A stretch of 64,000 nt of DNA, taken from the NCBI GenBank assembly GCA_046597055.1, contig JBKJLC010000293.1, positions 43,974-107,973 on the forward strand, read 5' to 3'. Both the position numbers and the translations under genes were made by a program. Shown piece after piece: positions 16,533-31,745 of the stretch. The notes below the pieces were generated by a model that was not told the DNA's origin, ran no database searches, and was given only the letters and a program-made list of their open reading frames with translations. Numbering within the stretch: position 1 is the stretch's first letter; every line of letters starts with the position of its first letter. The DNA is from Kofleriaceae bacterium (GTDB taxonomy: Bacteria; Myxococcota_A; Polyangia; Haliangiales; Haliangiaceae).

Positions 16533-16658
16533 GCGCGGCGCGCGAAACAACTGCGCGATCTCATGGACGCCGCGGCGACCGCGACTCAGTTTTGTGAGGC
16601 TTGACCGCGGGTACCATCGCGGTTTACCCACGACGCGGGTCCGACCCGACCACCCCCC

Positions 16659-17390
<732 letters not shown>

Positions 17391-17437
17391 CCGAGCGGGG
17401 CCCCTGGGTGCCCCGCGACGCGTGCTAAAGACTGGCG

Positions 17438-19204
<1,767 letters not shown>

Positions 19205-22722: not shown

Positions 22723-23769
22723 ATGAAGCCCAGCGTGTTCGTCCTGATCGTGCTGGCGGCCGGCTGCGGCCGGGACGAGCTCCGGGTGTCCGGCTCCACG
22801 TACGCTTACACTCCCGGCGCGCCGGACTGGATCTCTCAGCGGACGCATCTCCTTGCACCGCGCGCTGCACATGGGCTGGTCGCACTACCCGGCCGCGCGT
22901 TCCTCGTGATCGGCGGCGACCGCGGCAAGCTCGACTCGTCGCCCACGGTCGAGCCCGCGCTCGACATCGAGCGCTGCGTGCTCGGCGAACCCGCGTGTGT
23001 CGTTGTCGGCCGGCTCGCGCGTCCGACCGAACAACCGACGGTCGCGCGCGCGCCCGACGGGACGATCGTGGTCGCCGATTGGCGCGGACTTCAGATCTTC
23101 GATCCCGCCACCGGGACGACCGCGGAGGTCCCGGTGGCGCCACACACGATCGTCGCGACGGCCGCTGGCGTCGTCCTGCTCGGGATCGAGGGTGCGCGGG
23201 ATCGGACCACGAACCTCCCCGGGCCGTACCAGTTCGGCCTGTTCCGCGGCCAGGCCACGGGTCTCGAGCCGCTCGCGGCCGCCCCCAACGCGGCGTGGGC
23301 AGGCGGGGTGGATGTGCTCGACGGAGATCGCATCGTCACGGCATCGCGCACGAGCTCGGCGCTGCTCGACGTCGCGACCGAGACGTGGACGGTGCTACCG
23401 AGCCTGCCGACGGAGACGTTCACGACGCACGTGGTGCAGGTCGGGGACGGCCTCGTGCTCGCGATTCCCGACGGCGCTCCGAAGGCGTATTTGCTCTCGG
23501 CGGCCACGCTGCGTTGGACGGCCGTCGCCGTGCCCACGACCACGGACCATGTGCAGCACGCGCTCACGGTCCCGGGCGGGGCCGTGGTGGTCACCAGTGA
23601 CGGCGTCGGCGGCGCGACCCGTACGTTCCGCGTCAGCGATGGGTCCTGGCTCGCGGGCCCGCCCCCGCCGCCGTGGTCGATCCTGAACGCCGCGGTCGTG
23701 CTCGACGACGGCACGGTGATCTCGGTGGGAGGGTGCGACTCCAACTTCATCGACGCGCGCGCGTCGTGA
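22723..23769 (+). CDS. Kelch/beta-propeller-like lipoprotein
   Basis: Lipobox LAAGC; LVIGG, ETWTVLP, VISVGG Kelch-like blades. Confidence 0.55.
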   Translation: MKPSVFVLIVLAAGCGRDELRVSGSTYAYTPGAPDWISQRTHLLAPRAAHGLVALPGRAFLVIGGDRGKLDSSPTVEPALDIERCVLGEPACVVVGRLARPTEQPTVARAPDGTIVVADWRGLQIFDPATGTTAEVPVAPHTIVATAAGVVLLGIEGARDRTTNLPGPYQFGLFRGQATGLEPLAAAPNAAWAGGVDVLDGDRIVTASRTSSALLDVATETWTVLPSLPTETFTTHVVQVGDGLVLAIPDGAPKAYLLSAATLRWTAVAVPTTTDHVQHALTVPGGAVVVTSDGVGGATRTFRVSDGSWLAGPPPPPWSILNAAVVLDDGTVISVGGCDSNFIDARAS

Positions 23770-23837
23770 CCTGCGCTGGTCGCCTGCACGTGACCGGTGG
23801 CGGTCGGCCGGGCGTCGGCGACCGCGGCGGTGATGCG

Positions 23838-23909
23838 TACCCACGAAGGGAATCGAACCCTCTCCATCGGTTTGAAAGGCCGAGGTCCTGACCACTGGAC
23901 GACGCGGGC
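23838..23909 (-). tRNA. tRNA-Glu(TTC)
   Basis: Cloverleaf GCCCGCG/CGTGGGT, loop CT-TTC-AA, T-loop TTCGATT; no encoded CCA. Confidence 0.85.
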
Positions 23910-23923
23910 GGTGACAGACGGGG

Positions 23924-23991
23924 TGCCTCTGGCAGGAATCGAACCTGCTCACCAGGTGTCGGAGACCCGGGTCGGATCCGTCCACAGAGGC
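23924..23991 (-). tRNA. tRNA-Arg(CCG), reduced D-arm
   Basis: GCCTCTG/CAGAGGC-A, loop CT-CCG-AC, T-loop TTCGATT. Confidence 0.7.
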
Positions 23992-24002
23992 GAGAAACGC
24001 GG

Positions 24003-24076
24003 AGCCCACCGACGGATTCGAACCGTCCTCTCTCCCGTACCAGGGGGGTGTGTCCGACCAGGATCACCAGATGGGC
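24003..24076 (-). tRNA. tRNA-Thr(GGT)
   Basis: GCCCATC/GGTGGGC-T, loop CT-GGT-AC. Confidence 0.8.
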
Positions 24077-24089
24077 GTGAGCGTTGCGG

Positions 24090-24162
24090 TCGGGATCGAG
24101 AGGATCGAACTCTCCCATTTCGCCGTGTGAGAGCGACCTCACCCCCAGGTGAGCTGATCCCG
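24090..24162 (-). tRNA. tRNA with Val(CAC) anticodon and Pro-like acceptor stem
   Basis: CGGGATC/GATCCCG-A, loop CT-CAC-AC. Confidence 0.75.
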
Positions 24163-24169
24163 ATTTCAA

Positions 24170-24243
24170 TGGAGCACTCGCCCGGATTTGCACCGGGATG
24201 ACACGGTTTGCAGCCATGCGCCTGACTCTTCGGCCACGAGTGC
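24170..24243 (-). tRNA. tRNA-Cys(GCA)
   Basis: GCACTCG/CGAGTGC-U73-CCA, loop CT-GCA-AA, T-loop TGCAAAT. Confidence 0.88.
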
Positions 24244-24247
24244 GTGG

Positions 24248-24321
24248 TGGTGGACCCGGGGGGATTCGAACCCCCGTCTCTGCTGTGCGAGAGCAGGATC
24301 TTGCCGCTGGACGACAGGCCC
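24248..24321 (-). tRNA. tRNA-Ala(CGC)
   Basis: G3:U70, loop CT-CGC-AC, encoded CCA. Confidence 0.9.
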
Positions 24322-24335
24322 GGAAGGAACACGAG

Positions 24336-24408
24336 CGGCCCTGACGGGAATCGAACCCGCCTGGATCTCATAGACAGTGAGAGAACGTCACCAGACGTAT
24401 CCAGGGCC
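24336..24408 (-). tRNA. tRNA-Asp(GTC)
   Basis: GGCCCTG/CAGGGCC-G73, loop CT-GTC-TA, unusual long D-stem ACGTC/GACGT. Confidence 0.8.
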
Positions 24409-24430
24409 GTGAACGAGAGACGAATGATGT

Positions 24431-24504
24431 TGGTGGAGTCGGACGGATTCGCACCGTCGTCACTGACATGCCGAGCCAGTGTTCTGCTGTTGAACTACGA
24501 CCCC
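24431..24504 (-). tRNA. tRNA-Ala(GGC)
   Basis: G3:U70, loop TC-GGC-AT (C33), T-loop TGCGAAT, encoded CCA. Confidence 0.85.
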
Positions 24505-24508
24505 GGGG

Positions 24509-24581
24509 TCCCGTCGATGGGAATCGAACCCACCTGGTACTGGGAGACAGCCAGCTGACGTCACCAGACGTCTCCGACGAG
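24509..24581 (-). tRNA. tRNA with Asp(GTC) anticodon and atypical C1:G72/A73 acceptor
   Basis: CTCGTCG/CGACGGG-A, D-arm GACGTC-TGGT-GACGTC, loop CT-GTC-TC. Confidence 0.7.
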
Positions 24582-24591
24582 CAGACAGACG

Positions 24592-24662
24592 TGGAGCTGG
24601 AGGGAATCGCACCCCCGTCGCTGGCATGTCGGACCAGCATTCTGCTGTTGAACTACAGCTCC
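24592..24662 (-). tRNA. tRNA-Val(GAC)
   Basis: GGAGCTG/CAGCTCC-A, loop CC-GAC-AT (C33), T-loop TGCGATT. Confidence 0.8.
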
Positions 24663-24666
24663 TCAG

Positions 24667-24738
24667 TCGGAATGACAGGACTTGCACCTGCAGCCTCACC
24701 GTCCCGAACGGCGCGTTCTTCTATTGAACTACATCCCG
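24667..24738 (-). tRNA. tRNA-Pro(CGG)
   Basis: C1:G72, A73, loop TT-CGG-GA, T-loop TGCAAGT. Confidence 0.88.
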
Positions 24739-24841
24739 AGGCGGACGAGGGCCCGACCCGGGGGGGCCGGTCGGACAGGTCCTCGTCCTGTGGAAACATG
24801 AGAGCTCGGCCGCAGGCGCCGCCTGACGCGAACGTAGTGAG

Positions 24842-24927
24842 CGGAAGGAAAGGGAATCGAACCCTCGACACATGGATCCTGTGCGCGCGATTAGCAGTCG
24901 CGGTCCTCGACCAGCCGGACTCCTTCC
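24842..24927 (-). tRNA. tRNA-Ser(GCT)
   Basis: GGAAGGA/TCCTTCC-G73, loop CT-GCT-AA, long variable arm. Confidence 0.85.
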
Positions 24928-24999
24928 CGAACCGACCCACGACGGACGCTGACTGTCGACCGAGATCGGCAGCCGGGCTCCGGGGTGGGTATCGGTTTG

Positions 25000-25091
25000 C
25001 GGAGGGAGAGGGAGTCGAACCCCCAAGGCATCTCGAAGATGCTCGCGCGGCTTTCGAAACCGGCACCGTCGCCACATCGGCTTGCCCCTCC
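25000..25091 (-). tRNA. tRNA-Ser(CGA)
   Basis: GGAGGGG/TCCCTCC-G73, loop TT-CGA-AA, long variable arm. Confidence 0.85.
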
Positions 25092-25205
25092 AGATCGATG
25101 CCTCACGCGCCACCCTGCTGGCGCCACGACCGGGGCCATCACTCCCTGGTCGCGGCGCTCCGCCGCCGCCGCCCACCCGCCGCCACGTGTGTCAACGCGA
25201 GAGAG

Positions 25206-25754
25206 TCACGAGGCCAGCTCCCCGTCGCTCTCGATCTCGCCGGTCCAGTACAAGTAGTCACGCCACGCGTCAGGCATCGACCGCGTGCTGACCCTGATCG
25301 TCACCGCCGGCACCCAGGTCGGGCGCGCCGGCTCCATCCGCAGCTTCATCCCGGCCTCGGCCGGCGTCCGGTTGCCCTTCGATCCGTTGCACGGATAGCA
25401 GCAGGTCACGATGTTCTCCCAGGTGGTCTTGCCGCCGCGGGCACGGGGAACCACGTGGTCGTAGGTCAGCTCCGCCAGCGTGCACTTGGTCGCGCAGTAC
25501 TGGCACTTGTAGCCGTCACGCGCGTAGATGTTCACGCGCGAGAACTTGACGGGCTTGCGGTATCGCCGGAACGCACGGATCAACCGCACGACCGCCGGCA
25601 CCTTGATGATGAGCGTCACCGCTCGGATCTCGGCGTCGTACTCCTCGACCACCTCCACCTTGCCGAGGGTCAGGAGGGTGATCGCCCGCTGCCACGGGAT
25701 GACCTTGATGGGCTCGTACCCCTGCGACAGGAGCAGCGTCGTCGCGTGACTCAT
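25206..25754 (-). CDS. HNH endonuclease (McrA-like) embedded in the tRNA array
   Basis: RDGYKCQYC, TYDHVVPRARGG, WENIVTCCYPCNGSKG; AGGA upstream. Confidence 0.92.
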   Translation of the reverse strand: MSHATTLLLSQGYEPIKVIPWQRAITLLTLGKVEVVEEYDAEIRAVTLIIKVPAVVRLIRAFRRYRKPVKFSRVNIYARDGYKCQYCATKCTLAELTYDHVVPRARGGKTTWENIVTCCYPCNGSKGNRTPAEAGMKLRMEPARPTWVPAVTIRVSTRSMPDAWRDYLYWTGEIESDGELAS

Positions 25755-25816
25755 GACGGTCCGTGTTCCTTTCCCCGGTCACTGTCTTTCAGGCGCGCCC
25801 CGGTGCCAGCGCGCCA

Positions 25817-25838
25817 TCGGCCCACGACGTGTGGGCAA
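25817..25838 (-). promoter_or_regulatory. Putative Ro-binding bulged-C hairpin in the HNH leader
   Basis: TTGCCCAC-ACGTC-GTGGGC-C-GA, the same motif as in the Y-like RNAs. Confidence 0.5.
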
Positions 25839-25851
25839 AAACTGCGTGTCG

Positions 25852-25926
25852 TGCCCTCCGTCGGATTCGAACCGACACTGCCCAGATTCTGAGACTGGTG
25901 ACTCCTTCCAGTTGGTCTAGGAGGGC
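25852..25926 (-). tRNA. tRNA-Leu(CAG), short variable loop
   Basis: GCCCTCC/GGAGGGC-A, loop CT-CAG-AA, 5-nt variable region. Confidence 0.82.
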
Positions 25927-25927
25927 G

Positions 25928-26004
25928 TGGAGTGATCGACGGGACTCGCACCCGCTAGGACGAGGTTCACGGCCTCGCGCCTGGACGACTTTGGCTTCGA
26001 TCAC
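25928..26004 (-). tRNA. tRNA-His(GTG), lacking G-1:C73
   Basis: GTGATCG/CGATCAC-U73-CCA, loop CC-GTG-AA (C33), T-loop TGCGAGT. Confidence 0.78.
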
Positions 26005-26006
26005 GG

Positions 26007-26077
26007 TCCGCCCGGGAGGAATCGCACCTCCGTCGTCCGGTTATCGGCCGGGTGCTCTGCTGTTGAGCTACGGGTGG
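26007..26077 (-). tRNA. tRNA-Ile(GAT)
   Basis: CCACCCG/CGGGCGG-A, loop CC-GAT-AA (C33), T-loop TGCGATT. Confidence 0.75.
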
Positions 26078-26084
26078 GAAAGAC

Positions 26085-26212
26085 TGGGGTGGGTGGCCTG
26101 GATTCGAACCTGGCATCTGCGGCTCCCTGAGAACCCTCTTCTGACGGCCCGGTGACGGGCAAGCTGACGAGGAGGGGCCATAACCGCCGTCCTGCCACTG
26201 GACGACACCCAC
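26085..26212 (-). ncRNA. tRNA-Y RNA chimera 1 (permuted Ro-binding module in the anticodon loop)
   Basis: Acceptor GTGGGTG/CACCCAC-C-CCA, D and T arms intact, ~55-nt insert containing CTTGCCCG-TCAC-CGGGCCGT...GGGTTCTC. Confidence 0.75.
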
Positions 26213-26226
26213 GTACGAAGTAGCAG

Positions 26227-26353
26227 TGCAGGCAGCTGGACTCGAACCAGCGTCACACGCGTTAACACGATAACCATCCAGCGTCGGCCCGCGACCGGGC
26301 GAGGTGAGTACAGGACGGATCCACGTTGCGCTACCGGGCTGAGCTACACCTGC
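26227..26353 (-). ncRNA. tRNA-Y RNA chimera 2
   Basis: GCAGGTG/TGCCTGC-A; insert CCGTCC...CTCGCCCG-GTCG-CGGGCCGA...GGATGGTTATCG. Confidence 0.8.
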
Positions 26354-26374
26354 GAAGAAACACAACACGAGTCG

Positions 26375-26499
26375 TGTGGACGGCCGGAGTCGAACCGGCG
26401 CGTGCGGTTTGCGACGATAACCGACTTCGACGGCCCGTGACCGGGCGAGGGTTGTGAAGACGAGATCTTTCCGCCGTCCTACCGTTAGACGACGTCCAC
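26375..26499 (-). ncRNA. tRNA-Y RNA chimera 3
   Basis: GTGGACG/CGTCCAC-A; insert CTCGCCCG-GTCA-CGGGCCGT...CGGTTATCG. Confidence 0.8.
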
Positions 26500-26504
26500 G
26501 TGCG

Positions 26505-26632
26505 TGCAGGTGGCTGGATTCGAACCAGCGGCCAACGGATTGATAATCGATGACCATCCGACATCGGCCCGTCGCCGGGCGAGGTTGTGAAGGACGGGTT
26601 TACGTTGCTCTACCGGACTGAGCTACACCTGC
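26505..26632 (-). ncRNA. tRNA-Y RNA chimera 4
   Basis: GCAGGTG/CACCTGC-A; insert CCGTCC...CTCGCCCG-GCGA-CGGGCCGA...GGATGGTCATCG. Confidence 0.8.
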
Positions 26633-26647
26633 AAAGAAAAACATGCG

Positions 26648-26719
26648 TCTGGATGACTGGAATCGCACCAGCGGCCTCGTGATCCCCGAACACGCGCCCT
26701 GCTCCTGAGCTACACCCAG
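26648..26719 (-). tRNA. tRNA-Pro(GGG)
   Basis: C1:G72, A73, loop TC-GGG-GA (C33), T-loop TGCGATT. Confidence 0.82.
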
Positions 26720-26720
26720 A

Positions 26721-26819
26721 TGGGGCGGGACTTTGGATTCGAACCATGTAGACCGATAACCATCCATCGTTCGGCCCGTTTCCGGGCAAGGGCACTTTGA
26801 TAGACGGACTCGTCCCGCC
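26721..26819 (-). ncRNA. D-armless tRNA-Y RNA chimera 5 (acceptor, Ro module and T-loop)
   Basis: GGCGGGAC/GTCCCGCC-CCA; CCGTCT...CTTGCCCG-GAAA-CGGGCCGA...GGATGGTTATCG; TGG-TTCGAAT-CCA. Confidence 0.75.
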
Positions 26820-26824
26820 AGAAG

Positions 26825-26894
26825 TCGCAACGGAAGGACTCGAACCTTCACCGGCGCGGATATGAGCCGCGCGTCCTCGCCCGAGGTCGCTGCG
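26825..26894 (-). tRNA. tRNA-CAT (Met or Ile2), reduced D-loop
   Basis: CGCAGCG/CGTTGCG-A, loop CT-CAT-AT. Confidence 0.72.
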
Positions 26895-26895
26895 A

Positions 26896-26966
26896 TGGGG
26901 CAACGGCGGGAGTCGCACCCACTGACCGGCGGGAACCCCGCCGGTCCTCCACGCGAACTCGTTGCC
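26896..26966 (-). tRNA. Degenerate tRNA-like gene (GTT at the tip of an over-paired arm)
   Basis: GGCAACG/CGTTGCC acceptor and TGCGACT T-loop, but the anticodon arm is a perfect 10-bp hairpin. Confidence 0.45.
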
Positions 26967-26971
26967 ACGAG

Positions 26972-27038
26972 CACGCCGCCAGAGAATCGAACTCTGCAGT
27001 CCGGGGTTGGAATCCAGACTCTTCCCAGAAGGCGACGC
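26972..27038 (-). tRNA. tRNA-Trp(CCA), minimal D-arm
   Basis: GCGTCGC/GCGGCGT-G73, loop TT-CCA-AC. Confidence 0.7.
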
Positions 27039-27107
27039 AAGTTGCAAGCATCAACATGTCACTTCCACTCCCCTCCAGTTACAGCTCGAGAATAGAAGTG
27101 GCGATCG

Positions 27108-27177
27108 TGCCACCGACAGGATTCGAACCCGTACCGACGACGTTCGTAGCGTCGCGTCCCATCCTCGGGACGGTGGC
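27108..27177 (-). tRNA. tRNA-Arg(ACG)
   Basis: GCCACCG/CGGTGGC-A, loop CT-ACG-AA. Confidence 0.82.
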
Positions 27178-27179
27178 AG

Positions 27180-27372
27180 ACAGGCAAGTGGCTGTGTTGG
27201 AGTGCGCCTTGTTCAGGGGCGCGGCGTCCAGAGCGCGCGGTTGCCCGTTTACGCTCGTCGACACGCACGCGGCGATCTACGAGAGACCGCCTCGCGCTGG
27301 CTCGCATCGGTCGCCCGATGGTCGCTACCTTGGGCCCGTTATAGTTACGGTAACCAACACATTCCGGCCCGT
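27180..27372 (-). ncRNA. Y-like RNA carrying a 23S rRNA helix-69 mimic
   Basis: 5' ACGGGC-C-GG-AA-TGTGTTGG pairs with 3' CCAACACA-GCCAC-TT-GCCTGT; interior starts with CCGTAACTATAACGGGCCCAAGGTAGCGA (27322-27350); bounded by tRNAs on both sides. Confidence 0.75.
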
Positions 27373-27376
27373 GACG

Positions 27377-27449
27377 TATCCCTGGGGGGAATCGAACCCG
27401 CCATACCTGGTTTGAGAGACCAGTAGACTGACCACTGTCTGACAGGGAC
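27377..27449 (-). tRNA. tRNA-Glu(CTC)
   Basis: GTCCCTG/CAGGGAT-A, loop CT-CTC-AA. Confidence 0.85.
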
Positions 27450-27499
27450 ATCTTCGCGTGGCGCTTGCGCCCAAGGCGCCTCACGCCACGCGATCTTCG

Positions 27500-27572
27500 A
27501 GGGCCCGGCGGGAATCGAACCCGCACCTCGCAGTTTAACAGACTGCCGCTCAGCCAGTTGAGCTTCGGACCC
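27500..27572 (-). tRNA. tRNA-Asn(GTT)
   Basis: GGGTCCG/CGGGCCC-U73, loop CT-GTT-AA. Confidence 0.85.
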
Positions 27573-27644
27573 AGACACGCCACGGTCGTGAGACCGCGGC
27601 GCGTGCGTGTTGAGGGCGACTCTCGTCGTGGCCTGGGCCGAAGC

Positions 27645-29282
27645 CTAGGCGCGGGCGAAGTCGCTGATCACCGGCGGCGTCGCCGTGTCGAAACCGACCA
27701 CGTCGAGCATGCCGGCGTCGTTCGGGTCCGCGATCGTGAACCCGTTCGAGGTCATCCCGACCACCACCAGCTTGGCCGGGATGCCGCGCGCCTGTCGATA
27801 GGCGCGCAGGGCCTGGGCCGGGTGCACGCTCCCGGCCCAGGTCTCGCTGTCCGTGTACACCACGAAGGTGTCCACATCCACCTTGTGCCGCTGCGCCCAG
27901 ATCATCGGGAGCGCGCAGTCGGTTCCACCCATCGGCAGCTTGGCGACCGCCGCGACCACGTCGTCGAGCCGCTGGCGCGGCGAGATCGACAGGGTCGTGA
28001 TGCCCGACTCGCCACCGCCGTGCATGCCGCCGTAGCCACCGCTCGCCGCGGTGAAGCCCACGAACGTGTGGTCACGCTCGGTCGCCGCGGTGATCAGCGC
28101 CATCGCCGCGCTGCCGACCCGCGGCGTCAGGCCGGGCACCCCGGCGATGGTGCCGCACGCCATCGAGCCCGACACGTCGAGCGCGAGCAGCATGCGCTTG
28201 CCGGCCGGCTCGACCGCCTTGAACGAGGCGTAGAACGCACCGTCCAGGGCGTCGATGATCGGCGTCACCGGCGTCCAGGTGCCGCTGCCACGGACGCTCT
28301 TGCCACCCTGGTAGGTCAGGAGCGCCGCCAGGACCGCGACCGGGTGGACGCGGGCCTTGGCGATCCGGTTCGCATCACCCAGCCGCGCGACCACGGTGTT
28401 GGTCGCGTTGGCACCCGGCGCGAGCAAGCCCGCACGGGTCATCGTGGCCAGGTTCCGGATCATCGCCGTCATGGGCATGTCGACCAGCAGCGCGTCCCAC
28501 ACGCCGGCGTCGTTCAGCCAGCGCGTCGGCAGCGTCTCGCGCGGCAGCCGGAACTCGCGCACCAGCGCCGCCACCTCGGCCGCAGTACCGGCCGCCTTCA
28601 CCGCCTCCATGCCGATCAGCAACCGCAGCGCCGGGTCGGCGCTCGCGCCATCCGGCACGGTTCCCTTGGTCACCCACGAGAACAGCCGATCGTGCGATGG
28701 CGACGCGGCGCGCGGGTGCGCGAGCCGCAGCAGGTCTCGGTTCGACCAGCCGTCCCGCTGCTGGTACTTCACCAGCTGCAGCGCGAGGTCGGCCGCCGGC
28801 TTGTCGTTGAACCAGCCGGCCACCGCCTTGCGCATGCCACGGCCCCAGCCGCCGAAGCCCTGCGCGTACTCCGCGAAGTGCATGAGGTGAGTGCCGATGC
28901 GGCAGACCGTCGGCAGGGCAGCGTAGGCGCTCTTGCGAGTCGCCTCGTCGCCGAGCTTGGCGGCCAGCGCCAGGGCGAAGATCGCCGGGTCGTTCTTGGG
29001 CGCCCGACCCGCCTGCGAGATCTCGGCGATCCGCGCGACCGTGCGCGGACCGTCGGCTGCCACGCAGCGGACCACCGTCTGGGCAGTCTCGAGCGTCAGC
29101 TTCTGCTCGGAGATGTAGTAGGTGCCGCCCTCGCTACCCAGGATGAGGAAGCGATCGAGCCGCGCCCAGTCGTCGACCGGCCAGGCGAAGCCCCCGGCCA
29201 GGTTCGGCACCTGCGCCGTACCCGGGATCGGCTGCGACTGCGGCGTCGCCTGCGTCGAGAAGAACTTGGTGAACTTGAACAC
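27645..29282 (-). CDS. rsr: Ro60/Rsr (TROVE + vWA) RNA-binding protein, 545 aa
   Basis: NLAGGFAW, RFLILGSEGGTYY, GGWGRGMRKAV, KYQQRDGWSNRDLLRLAHP, AMIRNL, MIDAS LDVSGSM, GGTDCALP, YTDSETW, GMLDVVGFD; GGAGG 6 nt before GTG at 29282. Confidence 0.96.
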   Translation of the reverse strand: MFKFTKFFSTQATPQSQPIPGTAQVPNLAGGFAWPVDDWARLDRFLILGSEGGTYYISEQKLTLETAQTVVRCVAADGPRTVARIAEISQAGRAPKNDPAIFALALAAKLGDEATRKSAYAALPTVCRIGTHLMHFAEYAQGFGGWGRGMRKAVAGWFNDKPAADLALQLVKYQQRDGWSNRDLLRLAHPRAASPSHDRLFSWVTKGTVPDGASADPALRLLIGMEAVKAAGTAAEVAALVREFRLPRETLPTRWLNDAGVWDALLVDMPMTAMIRNLATMTRAGLLAPGANATNTVVARLGDANRIAKARVHPVAVLAALLTYQGGKSVRGSGTWTPVTPIIDALDGAFYASFKAVEPAGKRMLLALDVSGSMACGTIAGVPGLTPRVGSAAMALITAATERDHTFVGFTAASGGYGGMHGGGESGITTLSISPRQRLDDVVAAVAKLPMGGTDCALPMIWAQRHKVDVDTFVVYTDSETWAGSVHPAQALRAYRQARGIPAKLVVVGMTSNGFTIADPNDAGMLDVVGFDTATPPVISDFARA

Positions 29283-29288
29283 GGCACG

Positions 29289-29348
29289 CCTCCGGCCCAC
29301 GCGGTGGGCACTGCTGGTTGGGCTCGGCCACGCACCATGCGCGGCGAG
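29289..29348 (-). promoter_or_regulatory. Two bulged-C Ro-type hairpins in the rsr leader, one overlapping the SD
   Basis: CTCGCCGCGCA-TGG-TGCGTGGC-C-GAG (29323-29348) and TGCCCAC-CGC-GTGGGC-C-GGAGG (29289-29310). Confidence 0.5.
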
Positions 29349-29444
29349 CGAGATCTGTAATGAGGAATCGCTTCGCGAAGCGCTCGATGCCTCCCGGCGG
29401 CATCGCCGCCGCACCACCGGAGGTGGCGGACTGGCGAGTCTTCG

Positions 29445-29516
29445 AGCCGGTCGGAGGAATCGAACCTCGTTGGGTCGCTTACGGAACGACTGCTCGCCCA
29501 GCGAGCTACGACCGGC
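29445..29516 (-). tRNA. tRNA-Thr(CGT), 8/4-type fold
   Basis: 8-bp acceptor GCCGGTCG/CGACCGGC-U, 4-bp T-stem GAGG/CCTC, loop TC-CGT-AA (C33). Confidence 0.75.
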
Positions 29517-29521
29517 GGAAA

Positions 29522-29587
29522 CTGGCGGACAAGTGGCACTCGTGGGGGTCTGTTATCAGGAGAACCCACGAGCATCGGCCCGCGCAG
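29522..29587 (-). ncRNA. Minimal Y RNA (canonical orientation)
   Basis: GCGGGC-C-GA-TG-CTCGTGGG-TTCTCC...CCCACGAG-TGCCAC-TT-GTCCGC; lies between two tRNAs just upstream of rsr. Confidence 0.8.
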
Positions 29588-29658
29588 AGCGGCGCGCGGG
29601 AGTTGCACCCGCACGGTCAGGGTGGAGGCCTGGCATGCTGCTGTTACATCAGCGCCGC
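29588..29658 (-). tRNA. tRNA-Gly(TCC)
   Basis: GCGGCGC/GCGCCGC-U73, loop CC-TCC-AC (C33), T-loop TGCAACT. Confidence 0.82.
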
Positions 29659-29668
29659 GACACGAAAG

Positions 29669-29739
29669 AGCAGGTGGTGGGAATCGAACCCGCGATCCCG
29701 GCATGGCGTACCGGTGTGTCACCACAACACTTCACCTGC
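29669..29739 (-). tRNA. tRNA-Gly(GCC)
   Basis: GCAGGTG/CACCTGC-U73, loop AC-GCC-AT (C33). Confidence 0.82.
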
Positions 29740-29822
29740 GGCGGTGTGCCTCGAGTGTCCTCGGGGCCACCTGACGGTCGTCGGCGCGCTCGGCAGGGCT
29801 TCGCGCGTCGACGAACGCATCG

Positions 29823-29897
29823 TGGGTCGGGCGGGAATCGAACCCGCGTCGGGGCAGATTAAGAATCTGCTGCAAAGCCAGCGTTTGCTACCGACCC
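29823..29897 (-). tRNA. tRNA-Lys(CTT)
   Basis: GGGTCGG/CCGACCC-A, loop TT-CTT-AA. Confidence 0.88.
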
Positions 29898-29926
29898 AGT
29901 TGCCGCGCCAGGCGCGGCGAGTCTCG

Positions 29927-29999
29927 TCCCACCCCCTGGAATCGAACCAGGACCTCTCGGGCTTCAGCCAAGCGCGCAGACCACATGCGCCAGGGTGGG
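29927..29999 (-). tRNA. tRNA-Phe(GAA)
   Basis: CCCACCC/GGGTGGG-A, loop CT-GAA-GC. Confidence 0.82.
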
Positions 30000-30088
30000 G
30001 TTGTGCGGTCGCCGCCGACCGCTGGGGAGCGGGTGACGACGACCTTCCGAAATGGGCGCCCGCGCTACCGGGCGCCCCATCATTCGTC

Positions 30089-30107
30089 TCTTCGGTTGTC
30101 AGAGATC
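30089..30107 (-). promoter_or_regulatory. boxA-like antitermination element
   Basis: GATCTCTGACAACCGAAGA resembles rrn leader/spacer boxA sequences; located near the 5' end of the array. Confidence 0.5.
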
Positions 30108-30177
30108 CACCCCGCGCGTCCGTCGGCCCGTGCGGGCAGACCTCGAGCGGGGCCGCGCCGTTTCATGGGCGCAGCAG

Positions 30178-30251
30178 TACCGGGCCCAGGATTCGAACCT
30201 GGATCTGTACGGTTCAGAGCCGTCCGTCGTGCCGAGTTGGACCAGCCCGGT
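30178..30251 (-). tRNA. tRNA-Gln(CTG)
   Basis: ACCGGGC/GCCCGGT-A, loop CT-CTG-AA. Confidence 0.85.
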
Positions 30252-30303
30252 GCGTGTCAGTAAGTGCGTCGATCGCCAGTCCCATGACTGACAACGATCG
30301 CAG

Positions 30304-30388
30304 TGGGGCGCCCAGGTTTTGAACCTGGCGGGTCGCGTGCGACGGCGGCTTTACAGGCCGCCCCGTCTCCATAGCGGTCTATCGCCCC
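30304..30388 (-). tRNA. tRNA-Tyr(GTA), first gene of the array
   Basis: GGGGCGA/GCGCCCC-A, loop CT-GTA-AA, long variable arm. Confidence 0.85.
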
Positions 30389-30408
30389 GAGGGTGCTGCC
30401 GGAACGGC

Positions 30409-30447
30409 AACGAGAAAGGGCCACCTGGGTTCGTCCCGGGTGGCCCT
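30409..30447 (-). terminator. Putative intrinsic terminator (attenuator) upstream of the array
   Basis: AGGGCCACCCGGG-ACGAA-CCCAGGTGGCCCT followed by TTCTCGTT. Confidence 0.65.
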
Positions 30448-30477
30448 GTTCACGGAGCTTGAGAGAGTGCTCTCGAG

Positions 30478-30672
30478 CTAGGTGGGAGGGGCCCCCCTGG
30501 GATCCTGACCGCCGCGGACGGCGCGATTCGCGAGACCGAAGATCTCTTCGATCTTCAGGCACTTGGCGGCGAAGCTGGACGTCAGACACCAGCTCAACTG
30601 CGCGGAAACGCGCCCTTGCGGCGAGCCAGATGGCATCGCATAGGCAAGGTGATGGAGCGAGGTGGTGTTCAT
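30478..30672 (-). CDS. Putative leader peptide (64 aa, ends DPRGAPPT)
   Basis: ORF stops about 30 nt before the terminator; its last codons are complementary to the terminator 5' arm; no strong SD, start uncertain. Confidence 0.45.
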   Translation of the reverse strand: MNTTSLHHLAYAMPSGSPQGRVSAQLSWCLTSSFAAKCLKIEEIFGLANRAVRGGQDPRGAPPT

Positions 30673-30805
30673 GGCGGGTGCTTCGACGTCCGAGGTTTCG
30701 TTTGGTTCTGCTTTTTTCCGTCCCGAACCGGTGCCAGCCTGTGCCGCCCTTCCGTCCGGGTCCCCTGCGATCCGCTCAGTGCAGCAGTCGCGGGTTGATG
30801 ATCTG

Positions 30806-30834
30806 TGCTTAAAGGGTCTGGCCTCCGAAGTCAA
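30806..30834 (-). promoter_or_regulatory. Candidate sigma70-type promoter of the RNA operon
   Basis: TTGACT-17 nt-TAAGCA with an AT-rich upstream tract; the -10 is imperfect. Confidence 0.35.
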
Positions 30835-30932
30835 ACTCCAATCGAAATTATCTCAGAACTAACAGTCACCATTCGAGTTTCGTCGTCGAGGTCGTCGTCG
30901 CAACCGTCGGTGTGCGGCCGTGTCCACCGGAC

Positions 30933-31745
30933 ATGAGCGTGAGCGGCACGAATGGCACGAACGGTTCGATGGTAGCCACGGAGAGCTCGGTTCTGGTGTC
31001 GTTGCGGGAGCTTCGAGAGATCGAGGACCGCCGGCTGGTCGAGCGGAAGGAGGCGGCAACCGCCCGCGAGGTGGCCCAGACCCGGGCCTGGGAGGAGGCG
31101 GTGGCGCGGCGCGCGCGCGAGCGGACCGAGCGCGAGGCGGCCGAGGCGGCCGAGGCAGCGCGGTGCGCGGCCGCGCAGGAGCACGCGGCGCGCGCCGACG
31201 CCCTCCGGCTCGCGGCGGTCGAGGCGCAGGCGCGGGCCGAGGCCATGGTCCGGATCGAGGTCGAGCGCGCCAGCCTGGAAGTGGCGCTGCGCCGCGCGGA
31301 GCTCGAGCGGCGGCGTCCCCGCTGGCTCATGACGATCACCGCGGGCATGGCCGCGGTGGCGCTCGCGGTGGGATGGCTGGCGGTCGAGGCGCAGGACGCC
31401 GCCCGCGCGCAGCAGCGCGCCGCCGCCCGCGCGCAGGCCGAAGCCGCGAGCTCGCGGCAGGAGCTCGCGCGCCGGGTCGCGCAGGCCGACGTGCTGGGGC
31501 GCAAGATCGCGGACGCGCGGGCCGCGCTCGAGGCAGAGCGGCGGCGGGTCGAGCGCGCGAAGTCGCAGGCGCAGGCCGAGTGGAACCGTGTCCATGGCGG
31601 CAGTCGCCCCAAGCCCGGCAGTGGCAAGGGTGGCGCCGGCACTGGCAAGGGCGGTCGCGGGAAAGGCAATGGCAGTGGTGGCGGCGTGACTGACAGTCCC
31701 CCGGCCGGCGCGGTCAAGGTCTGTACGGACGGTGTCTTCTGCTGA
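30933..31745 (+). CDS. Hypothetical coiled-coil membrane protein
   Basis: ESSVLVSLRELREIE N-terminal motif, coiled coil, one TM, Gly-rich tail ending in a Cys pair. Confidence 0.6.
   Translation: MSVSGTNGTNGSMVATESSVLVSLRELREIEDRRLVERKEAATAREVAQTRAWEEAVARRARERTEREAAEAAEAARCAAAQEHAARADALRLAAVEAQARAEAMVRIEVERASLEVALRRAELERRRPRWLMTITAGMAAVALAVGWLAVEAQDAARAQQRAAARAQAEAASSRQELARRVAQADVLGRKIADARAALEAERRRVERAKSQAQAEWNRVHGGSRPKPGSGKGGAGTGKGGRGKGNGSGGGVTDSPPAGAVKVCTDGVFC

What the first reader, a model, noticed from the sequence alone, without database searches (positions are those of the whole stretch)
23838..30834. Integrated Ro60 / multi-Y-RNA / complete tRNA set / HNH operon
Seen in sequence: one strand carries 30 tRNA genes with anticodons for all 20 amino acids (most without encoded CCA), seven Y-like RNAs, rsr and an HNH nuclease behind a single leader. 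Established knowledge: cryptic tRNA arrays, HNH genes in arrays and rsr-Y RNA linkage are each known separately, usually tied to RNA damage or translational stress. Inference: this is an inducible translation-rescue module in which one Ro60 is programmed by a panel of different tether RNAs (tRNA-like, rRNA-like, minimal).
Basis: partly seen in the sequence, partly recalled or inferred. Interest (0 to 1): 0.88.

Follow-up and report, generated by a model that had tools for sequence, protein, structure and literature searches.

The report
Ro60 operon with spare tRNAs
A soil myxobacterium keeps, behind one ribosome-sensing switch, a full spare set of tRNA genes together with the RNA-quality-control protein Ro60, a nuclease and small partner RNAs shaped like tRNAs or like a piece of the ribosome.

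Summary
On the minus strand, 30834 to 23837, lie 25 firm tRNA genes, 4 more that relatives support, rsr (Ro60) and an HNH gene of the kind found in long tRNA arrays.

Between them are five tRNA-shaped RNAs that carry an extra arm with an invariant CGGGCCG bulged helix. A 191-nt linear RNA closes with the same handle and contains a 34-nt copy of the 23S rRNA stretch that I take, from memory, to be helix 69.

The leader is a ribosome-dependent attenuator: a 64-codon uORF, an antiterminator that overlaps the uORF end, and a terminator. I found it in 20 related loci.

The module is chromosomal and present in 45 of 81 genomes of the family. Ro60, array and HNH recur in Chloroflexota, a cyanobacterium and others. 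The tRNA-shaped partner RNA lies beside Ro60 in at least 57 of 80 loci and is missed by Rfam's YrlA model.

Induction, Ro60 binding and the 'rescue' function are inferred, not shown. This scan had already met Ro60-linked arrays and a leader switch on other DNA. I found neither the linkage nor these RNA forms in my four searches of the held papers.

Verdict: a new variant of known kinds (L-arrays, Y RNAs).

The parts
30806..30834 (-). Promoter-like site: TTGACT, 17 nt, TAAGCA
   Evidence: A TTGAC(A/T) box followed by a TA-rich hexamer lies 255-450 nt before the hairpin in 12 of the 19 leaders examined. The tool's stricter sigma-70 scan found none in 23500-31200. Inferred, not mapped.
30478..30672 (-). 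Leader uORF, 64 codons plus TAG
   Evidence: Read from the sequence. An ORF of at least 20 codons (41-99 aa) ending 24-32 nt before the hairpin is listed for 19 of the 22 loci scanned (21 relatives and the window); in L017 and L037 a second ORF ends 10-21 nt before it, so the frame there is ambiguous. The peptides are poorly conserved except at the ends.
30434..30502 (-). Antiterminator: 30502-30489 pairs with 30446-34, the 5' half of the terminator, around a small hairpin just after the stop codon
   Evidence: Fold without the terminator's 3' half: -45.9 kcal/mol. In 20 of 20 leader loci, 8-11 of the 11-12 bases of the terminator's 5' half pair with a stretch 33-76 nt upstream, against about 7 with shuffled upstream sequence. 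L017 and L037 show compensating changes.
30409..30446 (-). Terminator hairpin GGGCCACCCGGG/CCCAGGTGGCCC followed by TTTCTCGTT
   Evidence: -31.5 kcal/mol, z -3.8. 88-91% conserved in 13 loci. The only copy in the genome.
29444..30388 (-). tRNA block 1: Tyr-GTA, Gln-CTG, Phe-GAA, Lys-CTT, Gly-GCC, Gly-TCC, Thr-CGT
   Evidence: ARAGORN default. Orthologues keep the cloverleaf.
30054..30176 (-). Conserved structured RNA of unresolved class, between tRNA-Gln and tRNA-Phe
   Evidence: Homologues in 15 loci. The first hairpin covaries and the rest is unclear. The CGGGCCG seen in the window is not kept in relatives.
27645..29282 (-). rsr (Ro60), 545 aa from GTG 29282 behind GGAGG; the open frame runs up to 29417
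   Evidence: Pfam TROVE plus vWA_Ro60. NCBIfam Rsr 595 bits, below the 900 cut-off. Relatives align from residue 1 of the 545-aa form. It is the only TROVE gene in the genome.
27376..27572 (-). tRNA-Asn-GTT and tRNA-Glu-CTC
27181..27371 (-). Linear Y-like RNA, 191 nt. Its ends pair (CGGGC/GCCTG and TGTTG/CAACA). The core holds a copy of 23S rRNA followed by a GNRA-capped hairpin.
   Evidence: 34 nt are 91% identical to E. coli 23S rRNA, in 5,426 of 5,426 genomes. The 15-mer is found in the window and 19 of the 80 loci, always on rsr's strand. The end helices covary.
26824..27177 (-). tRNA-Arg-ACG, Trp-CCA (relaxed call), a tRNA-like remnant at 26966-26899, and tRNA-Met-CAT
26724..26818 (-). 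Unit U0: tRNA-shaped Y-like RNA without a D arm
   Evidence: Carries the handle GCCCG-GAAA-CGGGCCGAACG. Model R1 scores it 38.8 bits.
26647..26719 (-). tRNA-Pro-GGG (C33, G55)
26088..26632 (-). Units U1-U4 (26632-26505, 26499-26375, 26353-26227, 26212-26088): tRNA bodies with open 7-bp acceptor stems and a roughly 55-nt extra arm
   Evidence: R1 scores 84-113 bits. The five-helix structure has 98.5% of cells paired and 0 of 500 shuffles reach it. Rfam YrlA scores only 17-31 bits, and only across unit junctions.
25851..26077 (-). tRNA-Ile-GAT, the His-GTG-like tRNA (26004-25927) and tRNA-Leu-CAG
25206..25754 (-). HNH nuclease, 182 aa
   Evidence: HNH_5. CxxC, DH, N and CxxCN are invariant in 17 sequences from several phyla. 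Homologues lie on Nostoc, Acaryochloris and Mycobacterium plasmids. On a mycobacterial plasmid the gene sits inside a 28-tRNA array.
23837..25091 (-). tRNA block 3: Ser-CGA, Ser-GCT, Pro-CGG, Val-GAC, Asp-GTC, Ala-GGC, Asp-GTC, Ala-CGC, Cys-GCA, Val-CAC-like (24163-24088), Thr-GGT, Arg-CCG, Glu-TTC

Best explanation
This is one chromosomal operon that joins a long 'spare' tRNA array (L-array type, with its usual HNH gene) to the Ro60/Y-RNA quality-control system. A ribosome-sensing attenuator controls both.

Proposed working, with each step marked:
1. Transcription starts at a promoter-like site near 30834-30806 (inferred).
2. A ribosome that translates the 64-codon uORF to its stop covers the 5' strand of the antiterminator. 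The terminator at 30446-30418 then forms and transcription stops. The anatomy is shown; the regulation is inferred.
3. When ribosomes are slowed or scarce, for example through antibiotics, tRNA damage or starvation, the antiterminator forms and the polymerase reads through (inferred).
4. RNase P and 3' processing cut the long transcript into tRNAs. They also release the tRNA-shaped Y RNAs, whose ends are an ordinary 7-bp acceptor stem. This is inferred from the shape and from the 5-21 nt spacing.
5. Ro60 binds the shared handle, an invariant CGGGCCG with a bulged C in a two-helix arm. This is inferred from likeness to the GGUCCGA and GNCGAA sites.
6. The variable modules, a tRNA body or a 23S rRNA look-alike, bring Ro60 to partners that normally bind tRNA or that part of the ribosome (speculative).
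7. The array meanwhile supplies a second set of tRNAs, only 53-73% identical to the housekeeping ones (sequence shown, use inferred).
8. The HNH protein is an intact nuclease whose substrate is unknown.
For: Anatomy.

Attenuator:
- The alternative folds are mutually exclusive.
- A uORF ends 24-32 nt before the hairpin in 19 of the 22 loci scanned.
- The antiterminator forms in 20 of 20 leader loci, with compensating changes.
- The hairpin is unique in the genome.

Array:
- All 25 anticodons are also present in the housekeeping set. Median identity to the same-anticodon housekeeping tRNA is 0.65.
- Orthologues have 98.2% of stem cells paired, and 272 of 520 pairs show double changes.
- The HNH gene belongs to the family found in cyanobacterial and mycobacterial arrays.
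- In Anabaena such an array and its HNH gene are induced by translation inhibitors (PMC8421152: abstract and section 22).

Partner RNAs:
- The five-helix structure holds in 36 seed units (98.5% of cells paired, 15 of 27 pairs with double changes, 0 of 500 shuffles).
- It also holds in 46 units from 26 loci that gave no sequence to the model: 98.3% paired, 19 of 27 pairs with double changes.
- Long units lie beside Ro60 in at least 57 of 80 loci, including loci without arrays.
- There are none in the one Ro60-less array tested.
- The linear RNA shares the handle, and its end helices covary.

Linkage:
- In the 80 loci, 869 tRNA genes lie on the Ro60 strand and 1 on the other.
- 37 of 80 loci have 10 or more same-strand tRNAs, 42 of 80 have HNH on the same strand, and 31 have both.
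- A pattern scan that did not use Ro60 found the rRNA-like RNA 40-927 nt behind a same-strand Ro60 in 30 of the 43 loci that hold 400 nt or more upstream.
Against: - No expression data for this organism. Only contigs could be laid, and those from RNA libraries come from 90-99% relatives and may hold DNA.
- The strict published Ro-site motif GNCGAAN0-1G is present in only 6 of 36 units and 6 of 20 linear RNAs. Ro60 binding therefore rests on an invariant GGGCCG and on position.
- Ten rRNA-like RNAs in metagenome contigs have no Ro60 within 2.5 kb.
- Shuffled upstream sequence also pairs with about 7 of the terminator's 12 bases, so the pairing count alone is a modest signal.
- The seed units were chosen by rules that demand the cap hairpin, the T loop and a paired acceptor. 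Only the D helix and the lower arm helix are free tests. The alignment is fitted to the model.
- C33 in 161 of 869 array tRNAs and G55 in 153 of 869 cast doubt on normal decoding by that subset.
- The tool's promoter scan found none.
Confidence: 0.6

Rival explanations
1. The main role is protection against RNA-cutting toxins. On this reading the array is a second tRNA set whose altered anticodon loops and T loops escape anticodon nucleases of competitors, phages or the cell's own toxin systems. Ro60 with its Y RNAs, and perhaps HNH, would clear the cut RNAs.
For: - Only 5 of 25 array tRNAs share their 7-nt anticodon loop with a housekeeping tRNA of the same anticodon.
- C33 occurs in 6 of 25 window tRNAs and in 161 of 869 in relatives. 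G55 occurs in 153 of 869, in none of the 45 housekeeping tRNAs with a readable T loop, and in none of the 27 such tRNAs of a mycobacterial array.
- A recent paper's abstract calls mycobacterial arrays a putative anti-defence system (PMC12803027, search listing only).
- That phage tRNAs escape nucleases through loop changes is my recollection and comes from no call.
Against: No tRNase or toxin gene is linked to the locus. The switch senses translation in general. This rival overlaps the main explanation and does not replace it.
Confidence: 0.25
2. The tRNA-shaped units are not Ro60 partners. They would be tRNA genes with an intron-like insert, or tRNA pseudogenes.
For: Rfam's tRNA model matches relatives end to end around the insert at 44-49 bits.
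Against: - The insert is the most conserved part (invariant CGGGCCG and GGTTATCG), and its helices covary.
- The anticodon region is not conserved.
- Units lie next to Ro60 in loci that have no array. None is found in the one Ro60-less array tested.
- I know of no bacterial splicing route for a 55-nt insert of this kind (recalled).
Confidence: 0.05
3. The locus is a decaying remnant of a phage or mobile element and has no present function.
For: - Distribution is patchy: 5 of 17 genera.
- Ro60 homologues occur in 355 phage records.
- The array holds one tRNA-like remnant and one truncated unit.
Against: - No phage or integrase genes are nearby.
- The same flanking Hsp70-like gene is present in 7 relatives.
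- Stems are kept by double changes.
- HNH catalytic residues are invariant.
- The leader is conserved.
- The rRNA-like RNA has no match in viral contigs.
Confidence: 0.03

Closest known systems
[quoted passage not shown] PCC 7120 (Santamaria-Gomez et al. 2021, PMC8421152), and the tRNA array units of mycobacteria (PMC5966550, listing only)
   Same: Dozens of same-strand, closely spaced, redundant tRNA genes. Patchy distribution. A linked HNH gene of the same family. In Anabaena the array is induced by impaired translation (abstract and section 22).
   Different: - Here rsr and six partner-like RNAs are embedded in the array.
- Control appears to be by a leader-peptide attenuator, whereas in Anabaena it is by repeats over the -10 box (section 22).
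- The words Ro60, TROVE, Y RNA and leader do not occur in that paper's main text. Ro60, TROVE and Y RNA do not occur in its held supplement, which was cut when stored.
- In that supplement the rows shown for cultured myxobacteria list clusters of at most 6 genes.
YrlA-type bacterial Y RNAs beside rsr (Chen et al. 2014, PMC4201824; Rfam RF02553)
   Same: Encoded within 4 kb of rsr on the same strand. tRNA-like D arm, T arm and acceptor stem. A G-rich CCG site on the strand that leads into the T arm. Several different RNAs per locus. M. smegmatis YrlA is cut by RNase P and gains CCA (passages).
   Different: - The topology is the reverse. The acceptor stem is open and the presumed Ro arm is closed by a 3-6-nt loop.
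- Rfam YrlA reaches only 17-31 bits against a threshold of 69, and only by bridging two neighbouring genes. It finds nothing at threshold in 9 further loci.
- Chen et al. discarded hits that overlapped tandem tRNA genes (passage), so arrays like this one were filtered out.
Ribosome-dependent transcription attenuators (trp-type leaders; the whiB7 uORF attenuator, recalled)
   Same: A uORF, a terminator, and an antiterminator whose 5' strand lies inside the footprint of a ribosome at the stop codon.
   Different: It controls tRNA genes and Ro60, not a biosynthetic or resistance gene. The uORF is long (41-99 codons across relatives) and shows no evident run of regulatory codons. My search of the held papers gave no article that links tRNA arrays with attenuation or a leader peptide.
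Salmonella rsr-yrlBA-rtcBA RNA repair operon (recalled; listed)
   Same: Ro60 with several Y RNAs in one stress-linked operon tied to tRNA damage.
   Different: No rtcB, rtcA or rtcR at this locus. Four RtcB paralogues lie on other contigs. There is a tRNA array and an HNH gene instead.

Membership tests
L-array (long tRNA gene array) | Twenty or more same-direction tRNA genes at short spacing | tested here: met
   25 default ARAGORN calls in 6.55 kb, all on one strand, interrupted only by rsr, HNH and small RNAs.
L-array (long tRNA gene array) | Supernumerary: it duplicates anticodons of a dispersed housekeeping set | tested here: met
   All 25 anticodons are also found elsewhere in the genome. 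Identity to those copies is 0.53-0.73.
L-array (long tRNA gene array) | Linked HNH gene of the array-associated family | tested here: met
   tblastn at 39-43% identity to HNH genes on Acaryochloris, Nostoc and Mycobacterium plasmids. On the mycobacterial plasmid the gene sits inside a 28-tRNA array.
L-array (long tRNA gene array) | Silent normally and induced by impaired translation | not testable with these tools
   Only the attenuator anatomy speaks for it. The RNA-library contigs are no measure of expression.
Ro60 / Rsr | TROVE ring domain plus C-terminal vWA domain | tested here: met
   PF05731 E 5e-45 and PF25045 E 8e-64.
Ro60 / Rsr | NCBIfam equivalog score for Rsr | tested here: not met
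   595 bits against a cut-off of 900. A clear family member, but not within the curated equivalog.
YrlA (RF02553) | Reaches Rfam's gathering score | tested here: not met
   Best score 31 bits against 69, and that match spans the T arm of tRNA-Pro and the D arm of unit U1. No match at threshold in the window or in 9 related loci.
YrlA (RF02553) | The 5' and 3' ends pair to form the Ro-binding stem, and the tRNA-like domain is internal with a closed acceptor-like hairpin | tested here: not met
   In units U0-U4 the ends form the acceptor stem and the handle is an internal, capped arm. The 191-nt RNA has the end-paired handle but no tRNA-like domain.
YrlA (RF02553) | GNCGAAN0-1G motif near the Ro site | tested here: inconclusive
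   The strict motif is in 6 of 36 units and 6 of 20 linear RNAs. GNCG (as GGGCCG) is invariant.
YrlA (RF02553) | Within 4 kb of rsr on the same strand | tested here: met
   The units begin about 1.0 kb, and the linear RNA 0.27 kb, after the rsr stop, on the same strand.
Y RNA in general | Bound by Ro60 | not testable with these tools
   No binding data. Inferred from the handle and the linkage.
Ribosome-dependent transcription attenuator | A uORF whose end overlaps one strand of an antiterminator that competes with a terminator | tested here: met
Ribosome-dependent transcription attenuator | Read-through depends on uORF translation | not testable with these tools
   Needs reporter assays.
Canonical elongator tRNA | U33 and the T54-Psi55-C56 T loop (rule recalled) | tested here: not met
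   This applies to a subset. In the window, 6 of 25 have C33 and 6 of 25 have G at position 55; in relatives 161 and 153 of 869. The other window tRNAs meet the rule.

The most novel reading that the evidence does not exclude
Ro60 in these bacteria is steered by Y RNAs that imitate the ribosome's own ligands. One class is a complete tRNA body with free acceptor ends, which could be CCA-tailed or even charged. The other is a copy of the 23S rRNA stretch that I take to be helix 69 with its 3' flank and a helix-71-like hairpin. From memory, that is the part of the large subunit that touches the decoding centre of the small subunit and is bound by recycling and splitting factors. Together with a spare, rule-breaking tRNA set and an HNH nuclease, all released by a ribosome-stalling switch, this would be a ribosome-surveillance machine that docks on stalled or damaged small subunits.
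Probability: 0.15. Interest if true: 0.92.

Novelty: new variant of a known kind. Interest (0 to 1): 0.78.

Why it matters
- It ties together two systems studied apart, stress-induced spare tRNA arrays and the Ro60/Y-RNA quality-control particle. It also gives a concrete, testable switch for both.
- It points to a widespread tRNA-topology form of Y RNA that the current Rfam model and the original survey's filters miss. Many Ro60 genes now thought to lack a Y RNA may therefore have one.
- It offers what may be the first Y RNA with a ribosomal-RNA look-alike module, which suggests where bacterial Ro60 acts.
- The recurrent C33 and G55 tRNAs raise the question of what tRNAs that break universal rules are for.

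Tried and rejected
- Complex prediction of Ro60 with HNH (alignments A8 and A7): no verdict, score 0.00. It says nothing either way.
- 23S rRNA of the window's own genome: not assembled (0 matches; the genome is 94% complete). The same search in relatives got no answer from the machine. I used E. coli 23S instead.
- Sequencing runs: only contigs were served. Three soil DNA runs hold the stretch, and two of them may be its source. Two RNA-library runs of another habitat hold 6-7% of the sampled words. Their contigs, from 90-99% relatives, cover parts of rsr, the start of HNH, and one 243-nt piece across the uORF end and terminator. DNA carry-over cannot be excluded, so I do not count this as expression.
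- The conserved RNA at 30176-30054 as a seventh Y RNA: the handle-like CGGGCCG of the window is not conserved in 10 relatives and only one hairpin covaries. Class left open.
- Spacers at 29821-29740, 29586-29517, 27644-27573 and 27498-27450: hairpins conserved in at most three relatives, none of the 80 loci for 29586-29517. Treated as processing spacers.
- PADLOC and NCBIfam for HNH: only generic HNH-domain matches (Cas9, IscB, PtuB, restriction enzymes), all far below the family cut-offs. Ro60 matched no defence model.
- Other copies of the attenuator hairpin in the genome (a shared regulon): none.
- Mycobacteriophage HyRo: its Ro60 (49.5% identical) has no tRNA feature annotated within 7 kb, so it is not the same layout.
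- Earlier notes of this scan, by sequence and by place: no look-alike. By words: nothing on a 23S look-alike inside a Y RNA.

Full report
**1. What is there**

The window has 72% G+C and comes from a 94%-complete, 8.4-Mb genome in 303 contigs. By the titles of its nearest public relatives it belongs with Kofleriaceae/Haliangiales in the Myxococcota.

On the minus strand between 30834 and 23837:
- ARAGORN tRNA genes and none elsewhere in the window.
- Rfam's tRNA model passes threshold for 16 of them, plus one more in a closer scan.
- Two proteins are embedded. One is Ro60/Rsr, with TROVE and vWA_Ro60 domains. Its most likely form is 545 aa from GTG 29282 behind a GGAGG. The other is a 182-aa HNH nuclease.
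- The flanks are ordinary chromosomal genes: Hsp70-like proteins, Ser/Thr kinases and phosphatases. No phage or integrase gene is present.

**2. The tRNA set**

The genome holds a separate housekeeping set on other contigs (66 further ARAGORN calls). All 25 array anticodons duplicate it. The array tRNAs are only 53-73% identical (median 65%) to the housekeeping tRNA with the same anticodon. Three of 25 encode CCA, against 9 of 59 housekeeping calls.

Reaching 20 amino acids needs weaker calls:
- Ile-GAT is sound: Rfam 52 bits, and 17 of 29 homologues are called Ile.
- Trp-CCA and Val-CAC appear only at a relaxed threshold. That threshold gives 2,202 calls elsewhere in the genome. Both have homologues that default ARAGORN calls: 5 of 13 and 2 of 10.
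- A His-GTG-like cloverleaf with an 8-bp acceptor stem is called by no program. It is the most conserved small RNA of the locus, at 74-95% identity in 22 homologues.

Across relatives the array tRNAs are maintained. For the 24 tRNAs with five or more orthologues, 98.2% of stem cells pair and 272 of 520 pairs show changes on both sides. One caveat applies: the orthologues were taken from ARAGORN calls, which favours sequences that fold.

A subset breaks universal tRNA rules (the rules are recalled):
- C33 instead of U33 occurs in 6 of 25 here and in 161 of 869 in 80 related loci. It is concentrated in Pro-GGG (19 of 21), Gly-GCC (23 of 35), Val-GAC (10 of 14) and Leu-GAG (15 of 23).
- G at position 55 occurs in 6 of 25 here and in 153 of 869.
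- G55 occurs in none of the 45 housekeeping tRNAs with a readable T loop, and in none of the 27 such tRNAs of a mycobacterial plasmid array.

**3. tRNA-shaped partner RNAs**

Four tandem units of 125-128 nt lie at 26632-26088, and a fifth without a D arm at 26818-26724. Each has an open 7-bp acceptor stem, a D arm and a T arm. Each also has a roughly 55-nt arm between the D arm and the T arm, at or just 5' of the anticodon arm.

The extra arm has this form:
- a lower helix (CCGUC/GAUGG type);
- an asymmetric internal loop;
- an upper helix GYCCG/CGGGC with a bulged C (invariant CGGGCCG);
- a 3-6-nt cap.

On 36 such units from the window and 22 related loci, 98.5% of cells pair and 15 of 27 pairs change on both sides. 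No shuffle in 500 reaches these values, and sliding the partners drops pairing to 28-46%. The seed was picked by rules that demand the cap hairpin, the T loop and a paired acceptor stem. Only the D helix and the lower arm helix are therefore free tests. Both covary.

A covariance model (R1) then found full-length units in at least 57 of the 80 Ro60 loci. I counted rows of 52 bits or more and 95 nt or more in the listing. These loci include Thiotrichaceae, Actinomycetota, Armatimonadota, Abditibacteriaceae and many Chloroflexota loci that have no array.

On 46 units from 26 loci that gave no sequence to the model, the same structure holds. There, 98.3% of cells pair, 19 of 27 pairs show double changes, and all seven acceptor pairs covary. 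This alignment is fitted to the model.

Further points on these units:
- Rfam's tRNA model reads these RNAs end to end around the insert, at 44-49 bits.
- Rfam's YrlA model does not reach threshold in the window or in 9 further loci. In the window it scores 17-31 bits, and only by bridging the T arm of one gene and the D arm of the next.
- That bridging is informative. The published YrlA order is Ro strand, T arm, closed acceptor hairpin, D arm, Ro strand. It is a circular permutation of the units here.
- The one Ro60-less array that I tested, 28 tRNAs around the homologous HNH on a mycobacterial plasmid, has no long unit.

Chen et al. 2014 describe the presumed Ro site as GNCGAAN0-1G, resembling the vertebrate GGUCCGA. 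They report that M. smegmatis YrlA is cut by RNase P and gains CCA. They also discarded all hits that overlapped tandem tRNA genes (passages). Here GGGCCG is invariant, but the strict motif holds in only 6 of 36 units. Binding by Ro60 is therefore an inference.

**4. A linear partner RNA with a ribosomal look-alike**

The 191-nt RNA at 27371-27181 begins CGGGCCGGAAUGUGUUGG and ends CCAACACAGCCACUUGCCUG. Its ends thus form the same two helices and loop as the arm of the units. In relatives both helices change together, for example UGUUG/CAACA, CGUCG/CGACG, AGUUG/CAACU and AGUCG/CGACU. For about ten loci the 3' partner is clear. For the rest my simple search was ambiguous or found none (3 of 19).

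Inside lies GGUUACCGUAACUAUAACGGGCCCAAGGUAGCGA:
- A 66-nt query hit the 23S rRNA genes of 5,426 of 5,426 E. coli genomes, at a median of 7 places per genome.
- The 34-nt match is 91% identical. It lies at 1896-1929 of the annotated 2,900-nt gene.
- In five relatives 29-31 nt are 100% identical to E. coli.
- From memory, not from a tool, this is the loop and stem of helix 69 with its 3' flank.
- The 15-mer is found in the window and in 19 of the 80 loci, always on Ro60's strand. It is followed by a hairpin with a G(C/U)(G/A)A loop whose stem covaries.

A pattern scan that used no protein found 0 matches in viral contigs and 57 in metagenome contigs. Two of the 57 are true 23S genes and one is unrelated. 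Of the 43 loci with 400 nt or more upstream, 30 have a same-strand Ro60 that ends 40-927 nt before the RNA. Ten copies have no Ro60 within 2.5 kb; several sit among kinase genes. The link to Ro60 is therefore strong but not absolute.

**5. The leader**

After a promoter-like TTGACT-17-TAAGCA come these elements:
- a 64-codon uORF, 30672-30478;
- a small hairpin;
- a strong terminator hairpin, 30446-30418 (-31.5 kcal/mol, z -3.8), followed by UUUCUCGUU.

A similar promoter-like site occurs in 12 of 19 leaders. The tool's own sigma-70 scan found none.

If the terminator's 3' half is left out, its 5' half pairs with 30502-30489. That stretch holds codons about 57-61 of the uORF and ends some 8 nt before the stop codon. 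A ribosome at the stop codon would cover it.

Conservation of the leader:
- An ORF of 41-99 aa ends 24-32 nt before the hairpin in 19 of the 22 loci scanned. The peptides are little conserved.
- The antiterminator forms in 20 of 20 leader loci, with 8-11 of 11-12 bases paired against about 7 with shuffled upstream sequence.
- Loci with a changed terminator carry matching changes upstream.
- The hairpin occurs only here in the genome.

This is the anatomy of a switch that opens when uORF translation fails. It differs from the repeat-over-promoter control described for the Anabaena array (PMC8421152, section 22).

**6. Distribution**

- Among the 80 best Ro60 relatives, 869 tRNA genes lie on the Ro60 strand and 1 on the other.
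- 37 of 80 loci have 10 or more same-strand tRNAs, 42 of 80 have the HNH gene on the same strand, and 31 have both. Many of the contigs are short.
- In Chloroflexota the array lies upstream and HNH directly follows Ro60. In some Kofleriaceae the locus is just Ro60, one unit and HNH.
- HNH catalytic residues are invariant in 17 sequences.
- In seven close relatives the same Hsp70-like gene diverges from the leader.
- In the family, 45 of 81 genomes sampled have this Ro60: 15 of 16 others in the genus, and 5 of 17 genera. The tally includes the unpublished genome G076.

**7. Literature and earlier notes**

- PMC8421152: I saw the abstract, sections 18 and 22, term searches and a search of its held supplement.
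- PMC4201824: passages only.
- My four searches of the held papers gave no paper that links tRNA arrays with Ro60 or with a leader peptide, and none on a Y RNA with a helix-69 look-alike. Subscription journals are largely outside that library.
- This scan had already noted, on other DNA, spare arrays beside Ro60 in planctomycetes and a leader switch before phage tRNA arrays. It had nothing like the rRNA-like Y RNA.

**8. Reading**

The structures, their conservation and the linkage are shown. Regulation, processing, Ro60 binding and function are inferred. I put the stress-opened 'spare tRNAs plus Ro60 particle' operon at 0.6. A toxin-escape emphasis is the main rival, and it overlaps the main reading.

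Noticed in passing
window 26004-25927 (-): The His-GTG-like tRNA has an 8-bp acceptor stem, a 3-bp D stem with an 11-nt loop, C33 and a GCGAGUC T loop. It is the most conserved small RNA of the locus, up to 95% identical in relatives, yet neither ARAGORN nor Rfam calls it in the window, and ARAGORN calls none of its 22 homologues.
   Followed up: partly
window array and L001-L080: C33 (161 of 869) and G55 (153 of 869) recur in particular isoacceptors of Ro60-linked arrays. They occur together more often than expected (60 cases against about 28). G55 is absent from the housekeeping tRNAs and from a mycobacterial array.
   Followed up: partly
L092, L108, L121, L122, L128, L129, L133, L141, L144, L145: Copies of the 23S-look-alike RNA, with the CGGGCCG start, that have no Ro60 within 2.5 kb. 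Several lie among Ser/Thr kinase genes, one of them in a 3.4-Mb contig.
   Followed up: partly
window 16605-19204 and 31865-34669: A DUF2760 gene, an Hsp70-like gene and an Hsp70-like/DUF3731 gene flank the array region. In L006 the first two lie directly beyond the array, as if the module sat inside this three-gene cluster.
   Followed up: partly
window 30176-30054 (-): A conserved RNA between tRNA-Gln and tRNA-Phe (15 loci) with an invariant purine-rich stretch CUGACAACCGAAGAGACGAA. Its class is unknown.
   Followed up: partly
L055 9759-11781: In one Chloroflexia locus six units lie on the strand opposite to Ro60, downstream of it. In all other listed hits they share its strand.
   Followed up: no
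G000 contigs C264, C68, C181, C210: Four RtcB paralogues in one genome, none near the array.
   Followed up: no
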